Virus record (IMG/VR): IMGVR_UViG_3300007747_000100
Direction: 5' to 3' (one strand)
Length of the DNA: 6,621 nucleotides
Origin: a virus
Lineage: Duplodnaviria; Heunggongvirae; Uroviricota; Caudoviricetes
Below the pieces are notes generated by a model. It searched no databases. It worked only from the letters and a program-made list of their open reading frames with translations, and was not told the DNA's origin. A program made the translations under genes and the position numbers. Positions 112 through 6,488 of the stretch are shown here, piece after piece (the stretch's first letter is position 1; every line of letters starts with the position of its first letter).

Positions 112-714
112 TTAGTGCGTCACTGGTGCTTCTGGGATGCCGTTTTCGTTTAGTTCGGCAATAAAGCTGTTGTGAAGATCGGCAAGCACTTCTCGCCCAA
201 ACGAAGTGAGTGTTCCCTGTTCGACATCGAACATGTTGCTGTAAAAAATGATGGCATTCTTTGTTCCGACATCAACACCATATTTCTCGATCATTGCGCC
301 CTCAATGTTGTTTGCCATAGCGAGGCGCTCTGCTACTGGATACAGCGGCATGGCGACGATGCCATTGGAATAAACAGAAACCACGGAATGATTGCCACTG
401 TCATCAATAATGCTGACGGTGCCGTTTTCCTTTCTCATTTCATTGATTAATGCTGTTGCTATCAGCCAGCGCCACATAATCACGTGATGCTGTGATGTGT
501 AATCGAAATATCCCTGGTTGCCGCCACTGGCAATAGCGAGATGTATAAACATGCCTTCATCTGGTTTATCGTCATAATCCCCGGCATCCAGACGATTTAC
601 GGCATCAATATATGAGACGGTCTCAACGCGTTCTGTCATGCCATTGTTGCTGCGGTGCATGATGTTTACGCCGTCAGGCGTTGCTTCTGCATGGAAGGTT
701 AAGAAATTATTCAT
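112..714 (-). CDS. hypothetical protein, about 200 aa (track ORF 112..771 trimmed)
   Basis: The track ORF begins at a TTG (771..769). The first ATG with a Shine-Dalgarno (GAGG, 6-nt spacer) is at 714..712, giving MNNFLTF.... This ATG overlaps the stop of the upstream 57-aa ORF as ATGAATAA. Stop TAA at 114..112. No family recognised. Confidence 0.6.
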   Translation of the reverse strand: MNNFLTFHAEATPDGVNIMHRSNNGMTERVETVSYIDAVNRLDAGDYDDKPDEGMFIHLAIASGGNQGYFDYTSQHHVIMWRWLIATALINEMRKENGTVSIIDDSGNHSVVSVYSNGIVAMPLYPVAERLAMANNIEGAMIEKYGVDVGTKNAIIFYSNMFDVEQGTLTSFGREVLADLHNSFIAELNENGIPEAPVTH

Positions 715-880
715 GTTTCGCCTCGCCTGAATGATTCTGTAACTCATAGAGCAGTGACATAACCGCGCCAATCATTAACTTGTCTCTGTTGCTTGGGCTG
801 GCCCCTTCAAGCCAGAACCCTAAAACAGTCTGAACCTGTTCGATGCGACATTGCGCTTCAATGAGCTGGATGTTGGTCAT
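707..880 (-). CDS. small hypothetical protein, 57 aa (not in ORF track)
   Basis: Manual translation of the minus strand: ATG 880..878 overlaps the TGA of the 87-aa gene (ATGA), with GGAG 8 nt upstream. Open frame MTNIQLIEAQCRIEQVQTVLGFWLEGASPSNRDKLMIGAVMSLLYELQNHSGEAKHE to TAA 709..707, which overlaps the next gene's ATG. Fills what would otherwise be a 105-nt gap in a tightly packed operon. Confidence 0.5.
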   Translation of the reverse strand: MTNIQLIEAQCRIEQVQTVLGFWLEGASPSNRDKLMIGAVMSLLYELQNHSGEAKHE

Positions 881-1140
881 TTCGCACTCTCCACATCGAT
901 TAAACTGATATCTATCAGGGAGGTAACTTTTTGTAGCCAGCTATTGATTACTGTCGCCTGTTCCCCTCCCACCGATGGAAGAATCTCATTCATCACATGA
1001 ACCAGACCTGTGCGCGCTCTGGTAAGCCGTTCAGTCGTGCGATCTGCAAGAGTGAATGTGTCTGGATATGGCTCTTCACGGCTCAGCAATGATTCAATTT
1101 CCAGCTCACACGGATGACGATAAATTAAGTTGATATTCAT
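877..1140 (-). CDS. small hypothetical protein, 87 aa
   Basis: Track ORF; ATG 1140..1138 overlaps the upstream stop (ATGA); GGGGGTG upstream; stop TGA 879..877. Confidence 0.6.
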   Translation of the reverse strand: MNINLIYRHPCELEIESLLSREEPYPDTFTLADRTTERLTRARTGLVHVMNEILPSVGGEQATVINSWLQKVTSLIDISLIDVESAK

Positions 1141-1331
1141 TTTTCACCCCCAAGAATTACCAGCTCTGCACGGGCATCGTTAACCAAAGATGAGCACGCT
1201 TTAATCGCATCCACGACATCAGTAGCGTCCATTTCTTCAGCCGAAAGACTGACAGCAACCAGGACAGCCGCTGCTTGCTCGATTAATTGAAGTGCGGACG
1301 TAAGGCGAGGGGTATTAATTGAGTTATTCAT
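1137..1331 (-). CDS. small hypothetical protein, 64 aa
   Basis: Track ORF; ATG 1331..1329 overlaps the stop of the 72-aa gene (ATGAATAA); G-rich tract about 8 nt upstream; stop TGA 1139..1137. Confidence 0.55.
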   Translation of the reverse strand: MNNSINTPRLTSALQLIEQAAAVLVAVSLSAEEMDATDVVDAIKACSSLVNDARAELVILGGEK

Positions 1332-1542
1332 TGGTTGCCCCCGTTTTTACTGGCATTTCGCCACCTTCCAGCAGGAAATGAACGTCACGAACGGCGAGAT
1401 CCAATATCGCGAGTAACGCCTTCAGTCTTTCGTCTCGTGAGGGAGAGTTGCTCACCAGAATGTCGTTAATCACTTCTGTCAGTGTGATGATCTGGCTTGT
1501 GCGTTCGAGGGGATCCATATGCACATCGTAGTTTTTAATCAT
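1324..1542 (-). CDS. small hypothetical protein, 72 aa (C-terminal segment of the 344-aa track ORF, with its own start)
   Basis: In-frame ATG at 1542..1540 preceded by GGAGG (6-nt spacer) and overlapping the TAA of the 1535..1729 ORF (ATGATTAA). Product MIKNYDVHMDPLERTSQ... has normal mixed composition. Stop TAA 1326..1324. Confidence 0.55.
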   Translation of the reverse strand: MIKNYDVHMDPLERTSQIITLTEVINDILVSNSPSRDERLKALLAILDLAVRDVHFLLEGGEMPVKTGATNE

Positions 1543-1729
1543 GTGCCACCTCCATGCGGATACGACCAGCAAAAAAGCAGATGTGATCGCGCACCAGAGA
1601 ACGGCGAGCATCGCGTTCAGACTCGGCAGCAATATGATGAATTTTGGCGGTAATTGTCGGGCAATCGCGGCGAACTGCGGCGATAATCCAGATAAATTGC
1701 GTTTTTTGGGTAGGGGTAGTAGCCAGCAT
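1535..1729 (-). CDS. small hypothetical protein, 64 aa
   Basis: ATG 1729..1727 preceded by a perfect AAGGAGG with 7-nt spacer. Balanced composition (MLATTPTQKTQFIWIIAAVRRDCPTITAKIHHIAAESERDARR...), whereas the alternative frame (the 344-aa track ORF) over the same bases is Leu/Pro/Ala-rich with no acidic residues. Stop TAA overlaps the next start. Confidence 0.55.
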   Translation of the reverse strand: MLATTPTQKTQFIWIIAAVRRDCPTITAKIHHIAAESERDARRSLVRDHICFFAGRIRMEVAHD

Positions 1730-2358
1730 GTGGCAGCCTCCTTCAGATAGCAGGTTACGCTACCACCGGAAACGCCAATTTCGCTGGTGGTAGCCCAGAC
1801 AGGGTTGGCGTAACCGGCTCTGAAGGATACCGGCGCTTCCGAAGAAGCCCCCGCCTGAGCCACCATTGATTGACAAAGGCGCTGGATTATACACCAACGC
1901 CCAAAAAATGGGTGAGTCAGACCTACGACATAAAAAAAGACGCTCGGCGCGTCATATGTCGCCTTCAGAATTTTCAGGACGCCAATCCCGGCACCCGTTT
2001 TATGAGGTGCCTTATAACCATAAACCGTGTTGCCGCATAACGGCAAGCTCTTTTTTATGGACTCCGAAAACTCACTATTGGAAGTAACGTCACGCGCGTG
2101 GACGAAGGTTTTTGTGGAGTCACTACACGAGCAGAGAAAGCCATCTACGACCAGAAATTCTCTGGCATAGCCGCTGACCTTCTCAACGCTAACACCATCG
2201 ACCGTAATTTCTGACATAGTTAAGGCATCCGCTCCTACCACCAGCAAATGATAAACTTTGCTTGTATCTGCTGTATTAATGTCTGACTTTGCTGTCATAT
2301 TGCTGGATTTTGGCGACATACCAGCCAGTGAAAATGTCTTCTTCTGGACGGGTATCAT
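1730..2358 (-). CDS. hypothetical protein, 5' portion of the 344-aa track ORF; 3' end unresolved (possible frameshift/pseudogene or genuine overlap)
   Basis: ATG 2358..2356 overlaps the stop of the 59-aa ORF (ATGA), GGAGG with 7-nt spacer upstream. The frame stays open to 1324, but downstream of about 1730 the evidence favours two separate small genes. The other two minus frames have stops at 1765..1763 and 1757..1755, just upstream of the next gene's RBS. Contains terminator-like hairpins on both strands. Confidence 0.35.
1932..1953 (-). terminator. terminator-like hairpin plus T-run on the minus strand, inside the long ORF
   Basis: On the minus strand: GACGC / GCGTC stem (1939-1953 in plus coordinates) with a 5-nt loop, followed by seven T (plus-strand A-run 1932-1938). 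The same bases encode ...[10 protein letters not shown] in the ORF frame. Confidence 0.3.
2030..2056 (+). terminator. terminator-like hairpin plus T-run on the plus strand, inside the long minus-strand ORF
   Basis: Stem TTGCCG (2030-2035) / CGGCAA (2041-2046), loop CATAA, then GCTC and TTTTTT (2051-2056). Confidence 0.35.
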
Positions 2359-2534
2359 TGGTTAACCTCCGCGAACTCCTTCATGAAACGCGCCAGCGGT
2401 TGTACGCATGGCGATTGATACCCGTCGCGATAAAACGTCACTCGGTTGTGAGACACGCTTTCGACAGTAACGAGTGCTCCGTGGGCATCTTTGTAGCGTT
2501 TTTGTGGTTGTGGTATTCCTGTTGGCTTAGACAT
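2355..2534 (-). CDS. small hypothetical protein, 59 aa (trimmed from track ORF 2355..2621)
   Basis: Internal ATG at 2534..2532 preceded by GGAGG (6-nt spacer) and overlapping the TAA of the AntA-like gene by 8 nt. The track's longer N-terminal extension would lie out of frame inside that gene. Stop TGA 2357..2355. Confidence 0.5.
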   Translation of the reverse strand: MSKPTGIPQPQKRYKDAHGALVTVESVSHNRVTFYRDGYQSPCVQPLARFMKEFAEVNQ

Positions 2535-3360
2535 TGAGCGCCTCCAGACGCTTGGCGAGCCAGCGTTGCGACAGGTGGGTGAGTTCTCCTTTGCGCTGCT
2601 CATATTCCATGCCCATATCAATTAACGTGATATTGGTGCTTTCGAGATATGAGAGGTGCTCAAGCTGTTCTGCGTTCATATGGTCGCGAGGTTCGCCAGA
2701 ATAGCCATTTATCCGCGCCCACTGCTTAGCAGTTAGCCCACCAAGAACGATACGAGAAATCATATTGCTCTCGTTTGTGTAGTGGTGTTGCTGCGTCGTT
2801 TTCCCCTGCTCGGCACGGGCCATGTTCAGCGCATCGCACATTGGCTTAAAGTTGTTTGCGGCACTGATACGGGCTTTTAGCTGGCGACGATAGCGGGCGG
2901 CGATTTCAGGCACGGTACGCTGTAATTCTTCCTCGCACTGGATGAAATAACGACGGATAGCGCGACCCTGATCATTGCGTTCGATCATTGCCAGTTCTTT
3001 CGCCATTCCGACACTTAACAGATAGTCTTTGCCGGGTCTGCCAGAGTGCTTAATCTTGCTGTAAGCCGCGCCATTCGGGCTTTTCCCCAAATTTGGGGAA
3101 ATTGTTTTATGGACTGAGTAATCGTGCCCAATGGTGAAGTCATATTCAGAGATGCGATCAGTGATCCATGTAGAGAAGTCTTTTCCCACGCCCAACGCTT
3201 TGTGTAACGCTTTTGCGCTAACAATATTGGTTTCACGCCCACCTATATGACCAGAAATAACCGGGACAATTGCGGCAAATTCATTACCGTTAATTGTGCC
3301 CAGAGAGGCGTTCAGATGAGGGGCGGCCTCAGAAATTAATCTGCTTTTTTCGATGTTCAT
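2527..3360 (-). CDS. putative phage antirepressor-like protein (AntA-type N-terminal domain), 277 aa
   Basis: Track ORF; ATG 3360 with GGAG (7-nt spacer). The N-terminal region (...NIVSAKALHKALGVGKDFSTWITDRISEYDFTIGHDY...) resembles the AntA/antirepressor domain as I recall it; this is a family-level call from memory, not a search result. Confidence 0.6.
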   Translation of the reverse strand: MNIEKSRLISEAAPHLNASLGTINGNEFAAIVPVISGHIGGRETNIVSAKALHKALGVGKDFSTWITDRISEYDFTIGHDYSVHKTISPNLGKSPNGAAYSKIKHSGRPGKDYLLSVGMAKELAMIERNDQGRAIRRYFIQCEEELQRTVPEIAARYRRQLKARISAANNFKPMCDALNMARAEQGKTTQQHHYTNESNMISRIVLGGLTAKQWARINGYSGEPRDHMNAEQLEHLSYLESTNITLIDMGMEYEQRKGELTHLSQRWLAKRLEALNV

Positions 3361-3372
3361 TTTTAGTCTCCG

Positions 3373-3678
3373 TTAGGCGGCGTTAAACGCGTCCGGGTAG
3401 AGTTTCAGAATGTCGGCAATTTCCTGCTGAGAAAGTCCGTTGTGATCATTTATGTTCGCAAGATGGTTAACATGAGTGATCACTTTCAGAACATCACCAC
3501 GGCAGGAGAAACGGTAGCGAAGGTGTGTTCCGATACCATCAGGATTCTTTTCGTCGATACGCTCCAGAGTGATTCCAAGCTGGCGTTCTAACTCTGTTGC
3601 ATAGTTACGACCAGAAGACAGACGGCAGTAGCGAAGAATGTCATTTTCTGTCCATCCCTCTATACCAGTACGCAGCAT
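3373..3678 (-). CDS. hypothetical protein, 101 aa
   Basis: Track ORF; ATG 3678, weak AAGAG upstream; 12-nt gap to the next gene; same strand and operon context as alpA. No family recognised. Confidence 0.6.
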   Translation of the reverse strand: MLRTGIEGWTENDILRYCRLSSGRNYATELERQLGITLERIDEKNPDGIGTHLRYRFSCRGDVLKVITHVNHLANINDHNGLSQQEIADILKLYPDAFNAA

Positions 3679-3690
3679 ATAGACTCTTAG

Positions 3691-3716
3691 CCGCCTGTAA
3701 TGGGCGGTTTTTCTTT
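3691..3716 (+). terminator. hairpin plus T-tract in the alpA-to-101-aa intergenic gap, terminator-like on the plus (antisense) strand
   Basis: CCGCC (3691-3695) / GGCGG (3702-3706) stem with a 7-nt loop, followed by TTTTTCTTTT (3707-3716). On the coding (minus) strand there is no U-run after the hairpin. Confidence 0.3.
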
Positions 3717-3720
3717 TCCA

Positions 3721-3939
3721 TCAGGCCACCTTCCCGCGGCGTTCTGCCAGCCAGTTATTAATTTCCACCGCATCAAACGCAGTCACGTTATCTGTTAGCT
3801 TCACTGGGCGTGGAAGAGTGCCATTTTTAACCCATCTATCAATAGTAGGCAGTGAAACACCTAGCAATTCCGGCATGCGAAAGCGACGGATGTATCCAGT
3901 TGTTGGGATAGCTGATGATGCTGGCTTGTGTGCTGTCAT
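3721..3939 (-). CDS. alpA: AlpA/Vis-family phage transcriptional regulator / excisionase-like HTH protein, 72 aa (start uncertain)
   Basis: Segment RMPELLGVSLPTIDRWVKNGTLPRPVKL matches the characteristic AlpA-family helix-turn-helix pattern (recalled family knowledge, so the symbol is family-level). The ATG at 3939 has only a weak SD and the 5' end carries TGATAGCT-type motifs, so the true start could be further downstream (e.g. Met22). Confidence 0.75.
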   Translation of the reverse strand: MTAHKPASSAIPTTGYIRRFRMPELLGVSLPTIDRWVKNGTLPRPVKLTDNVTAFDAVEINNWLAERRGKVA

Positions 3940-3956
3940 ATCTCTAGTAACCTCTC

Positions 3957-3969
3957 TGATAGCTCATGA
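3957..3969 (+). repeat. 13-mer TGATAGCTCATGA, copy 1 (alpA leader / 5' end)
   Basis: Exact 13-bp match to 6435-6447; contains the recurrent oriented 8-mer TGATAGCT. Confidence 0.5.
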
Positions 3970-4020
3970 AGTTACTTAAAGTTTAGTGGTTGCCCATACA
4001 GTATTTCTATTAAGACTAGA

Positions 4021-4052
4021 ATCTATTGAAAGAAATTATAAATCTATTGAAA
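4021..4052. promoter_or_regulatory. operator-like direct repeats ATCTATTGAAA (x2, 21 bp apart) flanking a minus-strand TATAAT; candidate promoter/operator of the alpA operon
   Basis: ATCTATTGAAA at 4021-4031 and 4042-4052. Between them the minus strand reads TATAAT (plus coordinates 4035-4040). No convincing -35 found; the A/T-rich upstream could act as an UP element. About 95 nt upstream of the alpA ATG. Confidence 0.3.
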
Positions 4053-4230
4053 AAATACCGATCCACTGAAAGATTGCAAATACAGGTGGGATAATTATTT
4101 TCTTTATTTTCAATTAGTTACCAGTTTAAAAAATCATTGTTTTATCAAAGAGTTATATCTTTCATCGTCATTCATCATGTTTTTACATTTCTTTTTATCT
4201 TTTATTATTCAATTGGTTGAGTCGGTTTAT

Positions 4231-4270
4231 AATGGCTCATGATGGCTTAAAATGGCTAATGATAGCTGGC
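4231..4270 (+). repeat. four tandem 10-bp repeats (aATGGCTcat / gATGGCTtaa / aATGGCTaat / gATAGCTggc), helically phased
   Basis: Direct reading: core (A/G)AT(G/A)GCT begins at 4231, 4241, 4251 and 4261, exactly 10 bp apart, in the AT-rich region between the 216-aa gene and alpA. Confidence 0.6.
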
Positions 4271-4410
4271 GTATCTTTTAGAGATGGGGTGATTACAGAT
4301 GAACTAAGCCGAACAGATATAGCAATGGCTAGGCATAGAATTATCTATGCTGGTGGAGATGGGTAAACAGGTAATGCCCCGCCATTGCTTTGGAGGGGCG
4401 TGAAAAGTGA

Positions 4411-5061
4411 TTAGTCGAGATCGTGGACAGCTAATAAAGCCCGTGAGATTTTTTCTAGGAATGTGGCTTTTGCTATTCCTTTATGGGATATCCCTTCATC
4501 CTTGATTAAGGTTTCTATGTCACGGTATATAGCTGTGCGATTAGGTTTCCCATTTTGGATGTAGGAAGATGAGCCTGATTTTTTTATCAGCAGATGTACT
4601 ATCAACCCCATCATTTTCATTGTCCCGTTTTCCTCATCCTGCTTTCTATGCTGCCCACGTCCGCTGCGGTTGGTTTCTTTGATGTAGTTTACTAACTGGA
4701 GTCCTCCAAGGTTTCGGGCTTTTTCTTCCCAGCCCTTGGTGCCACGCAAATCATCAATCGCTTCTGATATTTTCTGAACAATTATTTCTGGTGTATTTGT
4801 GTCAATAAATGGGTAAGAAGCTAAGAAAATATCAAGGGCATGGCAAGGCTCGTCTTTACTAGTTTTTTCACCTCTGTACACCTTGATAGCTCTGGCAAGA
4901 TGAGTTCTGACAAAATCGACATATTCGAAATTTTCCTCAGGCACATCGCTAATGCGCATAGATGGGTTTAGGCCAGCCAAGGCCACAGCCATTTCATGAG
5001 GGGTAATCGATACAGATGAACAAAGCCGTTCGATTGGCGATTTTCTCAAGATGTTGTTCAC
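4411..5061 (-). CDS. hypothetical protein, 216 aa, unknown function; integrase-coupled accessory gene
   Basis: GTG start 5061..5059 overlaps the integrase stop (GTGA) and is preceded by GGAGG with a 5-nt spacer. Long open frame, and visibly more AT-rich than the integrase gene by eye. No conserved motif recognised (no Walker A, no clear transmembrane segment). Confidence 0.7.
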   Translation of the reverse strand: MNNILRKSPIERLCSSVSITPHEMAVALAGLNPSMRISDVPEENFEYVDFVRTHLARAIKVYRGEKTSKDEPCHALDIFLASYPFIDTNTPEIIVQKISEAIDDLRGTKGWEEKARNLGGLQLVNYIKETNRSGRGQHRKQDEENGTMKMMGLIVHLLIKKSGSSSYIQNGKPNRTAIYRDIETLIKDEGISHKGIAKATFLEKISRALLAVHDLD

Positions 5062-6326
5062 ATTTGCCTCCGGGCTTTATCGAATGGCGTTACGTTGTAG
5101 TCTTTCCCGCTTTCCAGTGCCACCAGCAGATCAGCCCACTGTGCCAGCGCAGCTTTACGCTCATCAAAATACTGATGGCGGTTATAAATCCCCTCCACAC
5201 CCTTAATGCGATGATTGAGGCATCGTTCCGCTACGACAGGATCAACACCCAATGCTGCTAAATGAGTACGTGCGGTACGCCGGAAGTCGTGAATCGTGAA
5301 ATTAGGCACATCCGGCATTTCGGCGCGAACCTTAGCCAGTGCTACGGGTAAAGTGCTTTCCTGAATATGTGGGATCATTCTGTTTTGCATCTTCCTGGCT
5401 GGAAGCACCCATGCGCTATTACATGAAAAGGTGTGTAGCTCTCTCAACCATTCAACGGCTGGGGAAGGTAGAGGTATATCAATAGGGTCTCCGTTTTTGC
5501 TGCGTTCTTCCGGCAAATGCCATACCGCACCATCTAAATCAAACTCTTCCCATCGTGCGGCGCATAACTCCATCTTACGAACGCATAGTGCCAGCAATAG
5601 CTTAAATGTCAGTTCGTTCTGGCGGCTGAATCCTTTTGCGGTGCGCATAGCCTCGAATAGCCTGATAAGCTCATCGCGAGTTAGCCAACGGTCGCGGGAA
5701 ACCTCTTTACCACCAGCATCAGATACTTCAAACGCTGAACAAGGGTTTATCTCCAGAGCGTGGCGTTTTATCCCATAGTCAAAGATACGGCGTGCCCAGC
5801 GTAATACATCTGTTGCTATCGTTGGTGCTCCTCGGTCAACGATACCTTTCAACATGTCGTCAATGTGGCGTGGCTTAACGTCCTCTACCTTCATATGCCC
5901 AATGCAGGGGTTAATATCCTTATCAATTCTCCGGCGAAGGATATCGGGATGTTTCCATCTCGGAAGTATCTGGCGCTCGAAGTATTCGGAGGCCAGATCT
6001 GAAACACGCATGGCGTTTTTCTCAGCCTCCATTTTTGCCAGTGCTTCAGCTTTTCGTTCCTGTTTCTCTGCTGCTACGTCATAGCCAAGAGCAACTCTGG
6101 CTGACAGCTCTTTTGCTGTTTCTCTGGCTTTTGATAGTGACAGTTCGGAGTAAGAGCCTATAACCATAGCCCGCTGCTTTCCTGCGAGCTTATAGCGGAA
6201 TCGCCAGAACGGGACTGTGTAGTTTTTGGGGTAGCAAATATAAAGGCCGTTGCCGTCTGCCTTGCCATCAAATCTGTCTCCCGCCTTTATCCATGCGCGG
6301 ATCTGCATATCTGTGAGTTTTGGCAT
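5058..6326 (-). CDS. int: tyrosine site-specific integrase, P4-like family (about 422 aa)
   Basis: N-terminus MPKLTDMQIRAWIKAG...DGNGLYI matches the arm-binding N-terminal domain typical of P4-type integrases. The C-terminal region has the tyrosine-recombinase hallmarks (HDFRRTARTH; GIYNRHQY with the presumed catalytic Tyr). Start trimmed from the track's 6410 to the ATG at 6326..6324. Confidence 0.9.
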   Translation of the reverse strand: MPKLTDMQIRAWIKAGDRFDGKADGNGLYICYPKNYTVPFWRFRYKLAGKQRAMVIGSYSELSLSKARETAKELSARVALGYDVAAEKQERKAEALAKMEAEKNAMRVSDLASEYFERQILPRWKHPDILRRRIDKDINPCIGHMKVEDVKPRHIDDMLKGIVDRGAPTIATDVLRWARRIFDYGIKRHALEINPCSAFEVSDAGGKEVSRDRWLTRDELIRLFEAMRTAKGFSRQNELTFKLLLALCVRKMELCAARWEEFDLDGAVWHLPEERSKNGDPIDIPLPSPAVEWLRELHTFSCNSAWVLPARKMQNRMIPHIQESTLPVALAKVRAEMPDVPNFTIHDFRRTARTHLAALGVDPVVAERCLNHRIKGVEGIYNRHQYFDERKAALAQWADLLVALESGKDYNVTPFDKARRQM

Positions 6327-6355
6327 TGCGAATACCTGAATATCGAATATGGGGG

Positions 6356-6405
6356 TGTACATAAAGCAATGTACATGAAAGTCATTATGTACACCTCTAT
6401 GTACA
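6356..6405. promoter_or_regulatory. four TGTACA hexamers immediately upstream of the integrase start (candidate regulator or arm-type binding sites)
   Basis: TGTACA at 6356-6361, 6370-6375, 6388-6393 and 6400-6405, mostly in the context ATGTACA(C/T), within 80 bp upstream of the int ATG at 6326. Confidence 0.45.
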
Positions 6406-6434
6406 CGCATATTGTGCGCTTTGTTGCGTTGTTA

Positions 6435-6447
6435 TGATAGCTCATGA
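6435..6447 (+). repeat. 13-mer TGATAGCTCATGA, copy 2 (between the int upstream region and the junction terminator); candidate att or arm-type site
   Basis: Exact 13-bp direct repeat of 3957-3969. A further TGATAGCT lies at 6508-6515, overlapping the stop codon of the flanking gene. Confidence 0.45.
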
Positions 6448-6451
6448 TAAC

Positions 6452-6488
6452 AAAAAAGCCCGACATTTCGCGGGCTTTGTGGTTTTTT
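6452..6488. terminator. bidirectional rho-independent terminator
   Basis: GC-rich stem GCCCG (6458-6462) / CGGGC (6471-6475), extendable to AAAGCCCG/CGGGCTTT, with an 8-nt loop. It is flanked by an A-run (6452-6457) and a T-run (6483-6488), so it reads as hairpin plus U-tract on either strand. Confidence 0.6.

What the first reader, a model, noticed from the sequence alone, without database searches (positions are those of the whole stretch)
2527..3360. AntA-like antirepressor encoded directly downstream of the AlpA regulator
An antirepressor-type protein in an island that lacks visible structural genes in this window raises the possibility that the element manipulates the repressor of a co-resident (helper) prophage, a strategy used by some satellites to trigger or sense helper induction. 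This is a functional inference from a family-level resemblance.
Basis: inference. Interest (0 to 1): 0.4.

Follow-up and report, generated by a model that had tools for sequence, protein, structure and literature searches.

The report
Satellite "antirepressor" gene of unproven function
The gene is real and carries an AntA domain, but it is an already annotated, untested gene of a known type of E. coli phage satellite, and its predicted fold looks more like a DNA-binding protein than a proven antirepressor.

Summary
The ORF at 2527-3360 (minus strand, 277 aa) is intact, has a GGAG ribosome-binding site and matches Pfam AntA (PF08346, E 2e-21). It has no KilAC domain. It is not directly next to alpA: a frameshifted ORF (3373-3678) lies between them.

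The window is an E. coli island beside yicC. Its core (114-3731) is about 92% identical to EcCIMP1, a proven phage-inducible chromosomal island (PICI) mobilised by phage Kapi1. The EcCIMP1 "antirepressor" is 96% identical to this protein and was never tested. Deleting all of EcCIMP1 changed neither helper titre nor CI expression.

The antirepressor label is weak. P1 Ant1, a proven antirepressor, has only KilAC and no AntA domain. P4 epsilon is unrelated.

In a survey of one genome per species, full-length relatives lie between an integrase and a primase in 31 of 37 loci. Relatives sharing only the N-terminal domain do so in 0 of 16.

My best reading is a satellite regulator that binds DNA and is made together with AlpA. 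A true antirepressor role is not excluded. This is a new member of a known kind, of modest interest.

The parts
2527..3360 (-). antA-family ORF, 277 aa (the finding)
   Evidence: ORF list; PF08346 at E 2e-21; 96% identical to the annotated antirepressor of EcCIMP1; at least 80% of the gene is present in 610 of 5426 complete E. coli genomes.
2974..3222 (-). AntA domain, residues 47-129. In the model it is a beta-hairpin plus winged helix, with a basic disordered wing insert at residues 87-109.
2530..2971 (-). Long helix (residues 130-184) plus C-terminal helical bundle (185-277). No Pfam family covers it.
   Evidence: pLDDT mostly 90 or above across the C-terminal bundle; no Pfam hit in 26 relatives; PADLOC PDC-S22 at E 1e-10 and phrog_2657; the same module follows a pRha domain in Salmonella phage Oslo gp76.
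3368..3371 (-). GGAG ribosome-binding site, 7 nt upstream of the antA ATG
   Evidence: Sequence read directly.
3373..3678 (-). 5'-truncated remnant (101 aa) of a conserved 143-aa gene lying between alpA and antA
   Evidence: An 83-bp deletion relative to L001 and L012. The full-length protein models as a basic tail plus a winged helix (fold matches are weak, E 0.06 or higher). It lies just upstream of antA (12 nt stop-to-start here) in 15 of 37 surveyed loci.
3721..3939 (-). alpA (AlpA/HTH_17 regulator), first gene of the operon
   Evidence: PF05930 at E 6e-6. In EcCIMP1 alpA is the helper-induced master regulator.
4340..4367 (-). Sigma-70-like promoter match upstream of alpA (a weak consensus match only)
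   Evidence: the number of matches is no higher than in shuffled sequence.
2355..2534 (-). DUF4222 gene, whose start overlaps the antA stop (suggests translational coupling)
   Evidence: PF13973 at E 1e-24; overlap seen in the sequence; RefSeq gene start.
1324..2358 (-). 'Ash' ORF that contains the RNA immunity locus
   Evidence: PF10554 at E 6e-34. The P4 'cI ORF' scores as the same family.
1933..2010 (-). isrK / seqA-like RNA with its own terminator
   Evidence: Rfam RF01394, 67.8 bits, E 2.5e-13; terminator at 1939-1953.
1783..1870 (-). C4 / P4 CI-type antisense immunity RNA
   Evidence: Rfam RF01695, 79.9 bits, E 4.9e-15.
1535..1729 (-). Icd-like ORF
   Evidence: NCBIfam NF033153 at E 1e-19.
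5058..6410 (-). P4-type tyrosine integrase (RefSeq places the start at 6326)
   Evidence: Arm-DNA-bind_3, Phage_int_M and Phage_integrase domains; annotation.

Best explanation
The gene encodes the conserved 'Bro-zone' protein of an EcCIMP1-like Gram-negative PICI, a phage satellite inserted beside yicC.

Shown here. The protein has an AntA-type N-terminal domain, a long helix and a C-terminal helical bundle. It has no KilAC domain. It lies in one same-strand gene string, alpA - winged-helix ORF - antA - DUF4222, with overlapping or closely spaced stops and starts and no terminator-like site on that strand between alpA and antA. It sits upstream of the P4-type C4/isrK RNA immunity site. The full two-domain form is largely restricted to integrase-alpA-primase islands.

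Inferred. It is made together with AlpA only once a helper phage has switched on the alpA promoter. It then acts as a dimeric DNA-binding regulator or architectural protein on satellite or helper DNA, as other Bro-network satellite proteins such as PLE CapR do. It would not act by sequestering the helper's repressor.
For: Identity and context:
- 96% identical to the EcCIMP1 protein; the core DNA is about 92% identical.
- EcCIMP1 is a proven PICI, and the antirepressor, Ash and primase genes are its most conserved genes across EcCIMP1-like elements.
- Gram-negative PICIs have a described Bro zone, containing AntA and ASH among others, between the integration and replication zones.

Survey of 80 genome loci, one genome per species:
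- Full-length homologues have an integrase upstream and a primase downstream on the same strand in 31 of 37 loci with enough flanking sequence.
- N-domain-only homologues do so in 0 of 16.
- Only 3 of 50,697 phage records carry the full-length form.

Fold:
- AF2 model with mean pLDDT 77.5, mostly 90 or above across the C-terminal bundle.
- The top six Foldseek PDB hits are all DdrC, best E 2e-6, probability 1.0, about 250 aligned columns.
- DdrC has a beta-hairpin plus winged HTH, a linker helix and a four-helix bundle. It forms a domain-swapped dimer that binds DNA.
- The protein has pI 9.2, with a basic wing insert and a basic long helix.

Operon: RBS and overlapping stop/start; no minus-strand terminator between alpA and antA.

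Evidence against antirepression.
Against: - No experiment on this gene exists.
- The match to DdrC is structural only, at 13-16% identity. A profile of the family finds no solved structure by sequence.
- The model is a prediction. Helical bundles and winged helices are common folds, and the TM-scores are low (0.34-0.42) because the domains are oriented differently.
- No DNA target was identified. The alpA promoter region is not conserved between this element and EcCIMP1 although the proteins are 96% identical.
- Winged-helix domains can also mediate protein-protein contacts.
- The DdrC winged HTH is itself atypical, being negatively charged.
- The promoter and terminator scans are no better than chance.
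Confidence: 0.4

Rival explanations
1. It is a true antirepressor. The protein would bind the CI/C2-type repressor of a P22-like or Kapi1-like helper, or of another resident prophage, and derepress it. This would be analogous in outcome to P4 epsilon acting on P2 C, or RS1 RstC acting on CTX RstR.
For: - Family label and PHROG annotations.
- The N-terminal domain is shared with many genes annotated as antirepressors in temperate phages.
- The element is a satellite whose late region encodes P22-type ejection proteins.
- From my own knowledge, not tested here: P22-like phages are naturally controlled by antirepressors, and P22 Ant acts on several lambdoid repressors.
- There is satellite precedent for derepressing a helper: P4 epsilon is annotated 'helper derepression protein' in the same early-left operon position.
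- A role on entry into a helper lysogen was not examined in the EcCIMP1 paper.
Against: - No KilAC domain.
- P1 Ant1 lacks the AntA domain and is not related to this family. P4 epsilon is not related either.
- In the papers and records I examined, I found no AntA-domain protein shown by experiment to bind a repressor.
- Deleting EcCIMP1 left Kapi1 titre and CI-lux unchanged, and the island raised superinfection immunity rather than lowering it.
- Expression depends on the alpA promoter, which fires only after helper induction.
- The protein is highly conserved across elements, although only 2 of 21 EcCIMP1-carrying strains have a Kapi1-like prophage.
- The fold matches a DNA-binding protein.
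Confidence: 0.25
2. It is a superinfection-immunity or anti-phage effector. The protein would contribute to the protection against Kapi1 superinfection that EcCIMP1 gives to lysogens, for example by binding incoming phage DNA.
For: - EcCIMP1 adds to superinfection immunity by an unidentified gene, and no known defence system was found in it.
- The C-terminal domain matches PADLOC candidate defence family PDC-S22 at E 1.2e-10.
- Satellites often carry defence genes.
Against: - PDC-S22 is only a candidate family, and only the C-terminal 100 residues match.
- The gene sits in the conserved regulatory and replication core, not in the variable cargo slots such as the low-GC ORF between int and alpA.
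- It is conserved with the same neighbours across four orders of Gammaproteobacteria, which is unlike typical defence cargo.
- Immunity in uninduced lysogens would need expression while the alpA operon is off.
Confidence: 0.1
3. It is an accessory factor for satellite DNA replication or processing, acting like DdrC. The protein would bind DNA ends or nicks, or compact or circularise satellite DNA, in support of primase-driven replication or packaging.
For: - DdrC is the only strong structural match. DdrC compacts and circularises DNA.
- The gene always lies upstream of the primase, on the same strand.
Against: - The similarity is structural only.
- None of the DdrC residues involved in activity were compared.
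- The P4 alpha-type primase/helicase is known to suffice for origin recognition in P4 (my own knowledge).
- The N-terminal domain is widespread in phage regulatory regions.
Confidence: 0.1

Closest known systems
EcCIMP1 'antirepressor' (E. coli MP1 PICI; Pick, Stadel & Raivio, ISME J 2025, PMC11773190)
   Same: The proteins are 96% identical. Both lie in the same gene string: alpA, a 143-aa ORF, antA, DUF4222, ash/icd, small ORFs, then primase. The DNA is about 92% identical over window 114-3731. The island outside the window also carries PerC and ejection-protein genes.
   Different: The integrase, alpA, the int-alpA spacer and the insertion site differ (yicC here, tRNA-Thr in MP1). The primase is of a different type (DUF5906 here, Toprim/DUF927 in EcCIMP1). 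This window has three short deletions, one of which disrupts the ORF between alpA and antA. The EcCIMP1 gene is annotated only; its function was never tested.
Bro-zone / Bro-network proteins of Gram-negative PICIs (PMC10111431), including PLE CapR
   Same: The gene lies between the integration and replication zones. It has a modular N-domain plus C-domain build. Its C-terminal module also occurs behind a pRha domain in phage Oslo gp76.
   Different: This particular pairing of AntA with this C-terminal module has no assigned function. CapR has a different DNA-binding domain.
Phage P1 Ant1/Ant2 and the P1 immI module (c4 RNA - icd - ant)
   Same: The window also has a C4-type RNA and an icd-like gene on the same strand as a gene called ant.
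   Different: P1 Ant1 has only the KilAC domain and no AntA domain, and it is unrelated by profile comparison. Here antA lies upstream of the C4 RNA, so it is not under C4 control in the way P1 ant is.
Satellite P4 epsilon (derepressor of the helper P2)
   Same: Both are satellite-encoded and lie in the leftward early operon between the alpA/vis homologue and the primase.
   Different: Epsilon is a 95-aa protein of Pfam family Derepression (PF25738) with no sequence similarity to this protein. Epsilon lies downstream of the CI RNA; antA lies upstream of the C4 RNA.
DdrC of Deinococcus radiodurans (PDB 7qvb, 7udi, 8u0g)
   Different: Identity is only 13-16% and there is no match by sequence. 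The organisms and biology are unrelated. Dimerisation and DNA binding are not shown for the satellite protein.

Membership tests
Pfam AntA/AntB (PF08346) | Domain match above the Pfam gathering score | tested here: met
   76.7 bits against a cut-off of 27, E 2.1e-21, residues 47-129, full profile 1-68. All 26 diverse relatives also match.
KilAC-type antirepressors (P1 Ant1/Ant2, KilA; Pfam ANT PF03374) | C-terminal KilAC (ANT) domain | tested here: not met
   No PF03374 hit at E<=0.01, nor at E<=1 in 26 relatives. P1 Ant1 and KilA both hit it at about 1e-30.
KilAC-type antirepressors (P1 Ant1/Ant2) | Sequence or profile similarity to P1 Ant1 | tested here: not met
   hhalign of the family profile against P1 Ant1 gives probability 0.6%.
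Any antirepressor | Binds a phage repressor and relieves repression | not testable with these tools
   Needs an experiment. The only related data are at whole-island level: deleting EcCIMP1 had no effect on Kapi1 titre or CI-lux.
P22 Ant type (Pfam P22_AR_N / P22_AR_C) | Match to the P22 antirepressor domains | tested here: not met
   Neither family appears in the Pfam scans.
P4 epsilon (Pfam Derepression PF25738) | Homology to epsilon | tested here: not met
   BLASTP E 8.9. Epsilon hits PF25738 at 9e-51; the window protein does not hit it.
Gram-negative PICI (EcCIMP1-like) | Integrase, alpA and primase on one strand | tested here: met
   int at 5058-6410 and alpA at 3721-3939. A DUF5906 primase lies just beyond the window end in the matching record.
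Gram-negative PICI (EcCIMP1-like) | Small island without capsid, terminase or lysis genes | tested here: met
   The island in SF-166 spans roughly 18 kb between dinD and yicC (my estimate from the gene table). It has no capsid, terminase or lysis annotation, only a P22-type ejection protein.
Gram-negative PICI (EcCIMP1-like) | Excision and transfer that depend on a helper phage | not testable with these tools
   Shown for EcCIMP1 with Kapi1, not for this yicC element.
Bro network / Bro zone | Lies between the integration and replication zones, with swappable domains | tested here: met
   Position confirmed. The C-terminal module is found behind pRha in phage Oslo gp76.
DdrC family | Same fold and domain order | tested here: met
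DdrC family | Detectable sequence homology | tested here: not met
   Neither the single sequence nor the family profile finds DdrC among PDB sequences. A profile-profile comparison with a DdrC alignment could not be run.
P1 immI-type module | ant lies downstream of c4 and icd and is controlled by C4 RNA | tested here: not met
   The C4 RNA (1783-1870) and icd (1535-1729) lie downstream of antA (2527-3360) on the minus strand.

The most novel reading that the evidence does not exclude
The two-domain protein (AntA domain plus the unnamed C-terminal bundle) could be a satellite-specific relative of DdrC. In that case it would be a dimeric protein that senses or bridges DNA ends or nicks, or compacts DNA. 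PICIs of Enterobacterales, Orbales, Aeromonadales and Pasteurellales would use it to handle their own DNA or the helper's during induction, for example for circularisation, protection, or interference with packaging. The 'antirepressor' label on PF08346 proteins of this build would then be wrong. It would also suggest that the Deinococcus repair factor DdrC, reported to have no structural homologues, descends from a mobile-element protein.
Probability: 0.12. Interest if true: 0.6.

Novelty: new member of a known kind. Interest (0 to 1): 0.3.

Why it matters
At least 80% of this gene is present in about 11% of complete E. coli genomes (610 of 5426). Together with Ash and the primase, it is one of the three most conserved genes of a PICI lineage that has been shown to be functional, yet nobody has tested it. 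If it were an antirepressor, these satellites could wake prophages, which would affect phage-mediated gene transfer in gut and pathogenic E. coli. If it binds DNA, it is a new regulatory or DNA-handling component of satellite biology, and thousands of 'antirepressor' annotations would be misleading. Either way, one clean deletion in the existing EcCIMP1/Kapi1 system would decide the question.

Tried and rejected
- KilAC or any other Pfam domain in the C-terminal half: none found in 26 relatives.
- NCBIfam: no match for the AntA protein.
- Sequence search of solved structures, with the single sequence and with the family profile: nothing meaningful.
- Homology to P4 epsilon or P1 Ant1: rejected.
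- Control by C4 RNA in the P1 manner: rejected, because antA lies upstream of the C4 RNA.
- A separate promoter for antA: the consensus scan found none between alpA and antA, but that scan is no better than chance.
- dN/dS against EcCIMP1 and L012: only 18 and 11 substitutions, giving a ratio of about 0.35. This is too few to use.
- A search for a conserved DNA target: the repeats found lie in the alpA and int upstream regions. Those regions are not shared with EcCIMP1, so they are more likely AlpA or Int sites than AntA sites.
- Literature searches linking DdrC to AntA, and for PF08346, gave nothing relevant. No follow-up on the EcCIMP1 antirepressor exists.
- The search for related loci with the most diverse alignment failed. 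The closer alignment worked.
- The fold search for the 143-aa neighbouring protein gave only weak winged-helix matches, E 0.06 or higher.

Full report
**Observation.** The window carries one minus-strand gene string:
- integrase, 5058-6410
- an unknown ORF, 4411-5061
- alpA, 3721-3939
- a 101-aa ORF, 3373-3678
- the reported ORF, 2527-3360 (277 aa)
- DUF4222, 2355-2534
- a long 'Ash' ORF, 1324-2358
- several small ORFs

The reported ORF matches Pfam AntA (PF08346) over residues 47-129 at E 2.1e-21, well above the curated cut-off. It also matches PHROG anti-repressor families. It has a GGAG site 7 nt before its ATG, and its stop overlaps the DUF4222 start. So the ORF and the domain are real and lie at the stated coordinates.

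Two details of the finding do not hold. First, there is no KilAC/ANT domain in this protein or in 26 diverse full-length relatives, even at E<=1. Second, the gene is not directly next to alpA, because an ORF lies between them.

**What the locus is.** The window is E. coli DNA. It is 99.9-100% identical to an island between yicC and dinD in ExPEC strains such as SF-166. Outside the window, that island continues with a DUF5906 primase, a P22-type DNA ejection protein, an ImmA/IrrE peptidase and a PerC-family regulator. It has no capsid, terminase or lysis genes.

Window 114-3731 is about 92% identical in DNA to EcCIMP1 of E. coli MP1. The AntA protein is 96% identical to the gene annotated 'antirepressor' there.

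EcCIMP1 is an experimentally proven PICI (PMC11773190):
- It excises only when phage Kapi1 is present, and more so when Kapi1 is induced.
- Kapi1 transduces it.
- Its alpA promoter fires only on helper induction.
- alpA is required for excision and transfer.

The authors note that the antirepressor, Ash and primase genes are the most conserved genes across EcCIMP1-like elements, whereas int, alpA and perC vary. This window fits that pattern: the core is the same, but the integrase, alpA and insertion site are different. An earlier survey (PMC10111431) had already defined a 'Bro zone' between the integration and replication zones of Gram-negative PICIs. That zone is populated by domain-swapping AntA, Bro-N, ASH, pRha and related proteins. 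The gene and its position are therefore already described. Its function is not.

**The gene family.**
- The library of 50%-identity cluster representatives holds thousands of AntA-domain relatives, including many of about 240-280 aa that align over both domains.
- The C-terminal half (residues about 150-277) has conserved positions, including R164, G186, E197, R225, R256 and L260. No Pfam family covers it.
- It matches phrog_2657 and the PADLOC candidate family PDC-S22.
- It also occurs behind a pRha domain in Salmonella phage Oslo gp76, so it is a swappable module.
- Only 3 of 50,697 phage records hold the full-length form.

I surveyed 80 loci from a collection with one genome per species. 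Among loci with at least 6 kb of flank on each side:
- Full-length homologues had a P4-type integrase upstream and a primase downstream on the same strand in 31 of 37 loci. These came from Enterobacterales, Orbales, Aeromonadales and Pasteurellales.
- N-domain-only homologues had that arrangement in 0 of 16 loci.

Individual contexts in Aeromonas, Gilliamella and Salmonella show the same layout. The two-domain form is thus largely restricted to such islands. In E. coli, at least 80% of the gene is present in 610 of 5426 complete genomes.

**How solid is 'antirepressor'?**
- P1 Ant1, which is annotated as antagonising C1 through an Ant1/Ant2/C1 complex, carries only the KilAC domain and no AntA domain.
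- A profile of the present family shows no similarity to P1 Ant1.
- P4 epsilon, the classic satellite derepressor of a helper, belongs to a different family and is unrelated.
- In the papers and records I examined, I found no AntA-domain protein with demonstrated repressor binding.
- For the 96%-identical EcCIMP1 protein, the only relevant data are at whole-island level. Deleting EcCIMP1 changed neither Kapi1 titre after mitomycin C nor CI-lux expression. The island increased immunity of lysogens to Kapi1 superinfection rather than decreasing it.

**Structure.** An AlphaFold2 model built from 34 homologues has mean pLDDT 77.5, mostly 90 or above across the C-terminal bundle. It shows, in order:
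- a beta-hairpin
- a helix-turn-helix with a two-strand wing; the wing carries a disordered basic insert (residues 87-109, net charge +4)
- a 55-residue helix
- a helical bundle

DdrC has the same order of elements. It forms a domain-swapped dimer and binds, compacts and circularises DNA. Identity is only 13-16%, and sequence methods do not connect the two proteins. This is therefore a fold resemblance, not demonstrated homology. The protein is basic, with pI 9.2.

**Operon logic.**
- The alpA stop overlaps the start of the next gene. That gene ends 12 nt before antA, and the antA stop overlaps the DUF4222 start.
- No minus-strand terminator-like site lies between alpA and antA.
- Downstream, inside the 'Ash' ORF, Rfam finds an isrK/seqA-like RNA (1933-2010) with a terminator and a C4/P4-CI-type RNA (1783-1870). 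An Icd-like ORF follows.
- This is the P4/P1 type of RNA immunity, which blocks transcription into the replication genes.

antA lies upstream of that block, in the part of the operon that depends on the alpA promoter. By analogy with EcCIMP1, it would be made only after a helper has been activated. That timing fits a role during the induced cycle. It does not fit sensing or triggering induction of a resident helper.

**Best explanation and rivals.**
- Most likely (0.4): a DNA-binding regulator or architectural protein of the satellite, produced together with AlpA and acting on satellite or helper DNA.
- A genuine antirepressor (0.25) remains possible, especially on entry into a lysogen, because no one has tested the gene and helpers of the P22 type are naturally sensitive to antirepressors (my own knowledge).
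- A superinfection-immunity effector (0.1). This is suggested by the PDC-S22 match and by the unexplained immunity phenotype of EcCIMP1.
- A DdrC-like DNA-handling factor (0.1).

**Novelty.** The gene, its annotation, its conservation and its zone in PICIs are all published. New here are:
- this particular yicC-site element
- the absence of KilAC
- the finding that P1 Ant1 lacks the AntA domain
- the restriction of the two-domain form to integrase-alpA-primase islands
- the DdrC-like predicted fold

I rate it a new member of a known kind, with modest interest (0.3).

**Caveats.**
- The structure is a prediction.
- The promoter and terminator scans are no better than chance.
- The context survey used tblastn with a handful of query proteins, so some integrases, AlpA proteins or primases may have been missed.
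- Counts of prophage versus satellite loci rest on those markers only.

Noticed in passing
window 1783-1870 (-) and 1933-2010 (-), inside ORF 1324-2358: A P4/P1-type RNA immunity locus lies inside the annotated 'Ash' protein ORF. It comprises a C4/CI-type antisense RNA (79.9 bits) and an isrK/seqA-like RNA with its own terminator (67.8 bits). The Pfam ASH domain (residues 113-221) spans both RNA genes, and the P4 'cI ORF' scores as ASH too. Part of the conservation of the 'Ash protein' may therefore reflect the RNAs.
   Followed up: partly
window 1535-1729 (-): An Icd-like ORF (NF033153, E 1e-19) lies in a different frame inside the 344-aa Ash ORF. In EcCIMP1 the same region is annotated as a partial ash pseudogene plus a separate icd gene.
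   Followed up: partly
window 748/749, about 2085-2088, and 3686/3687: The window lacks three short segments (about 46, 31-33 and 83 bp) that are present in the close relatives examined base by base (L001 from SF-166, and L012). The best complete-genome matches also align in four pieces. The rest of the window is 99.4-100% identical to SF-166. There is no microhomology at the junctions. It is unclear whether this is a natural variant, an assembly artefact or an edit.
   Followed up: partly
window 3373-3722 (-): The gene between alpA and antA is a conserved 143-aa protein with no known family. It models as a basic disordered tail plus a winged helix, but the fold matches are weak (E 0.06 or higher). 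In Enterobacterales it lies just upstream of antA (12 nt from its stop to the antA start in this window). In this window the 83-bp deletion frameshifts it after codon 11, leaving a 101-aa ORF that starts at 3678.
   Followed up: yes
window 4227-4272, 3957-3969, 3906-3918, 6432-6457: A repeated motif, TGATAGCTCATGA / ATGGCTnATGAT, occurs in several places. Three copies lie at 10-bp spacing in the AT-rich region upstream of alpA, and one lies just before the alpA start. An exact copy lies upstream of int near the island end. These are candidate AlpA (excisionase/activator) or integrase arm sites.
   Followed up: no
window 3940-5061: A low-GC stretch (33-41%) and an unknown 216-aa ORF (4411-5061; phrog_30524 only) lie between int and alpA. 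This segment has no counterpart in EcCIMP1 and may be a variable cargo slot.
   Followed up: no
L003 7349-14623 (Aeromonas rivuli): A distant relative of the island (AntA 42% identical) is also inserted right next to yicC in Aeromonas. Its integrase is related. The same insertion site is therefore used across two orders of bacteria.
   Followed up: no
L092 4689-5732 (phage P1 ant1): P1 Ant1 matches only the KilAC/ANT Pfam family and not the family named AntA/AntB. The Pfam name is therefore not anchored in the P1 antirepressor.
   Followed up: yes
L025, L028 (Edwardsiella piscicida) and L009 (Edwardsiella phage EPP-1): These are exceptions to the satellite context. Full-length homologues occur with no integrase or primase nearby, and one lies at the right end of a 38.6-kb phage genome, where it is annotated as hypothetical.
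   Followed up: partly
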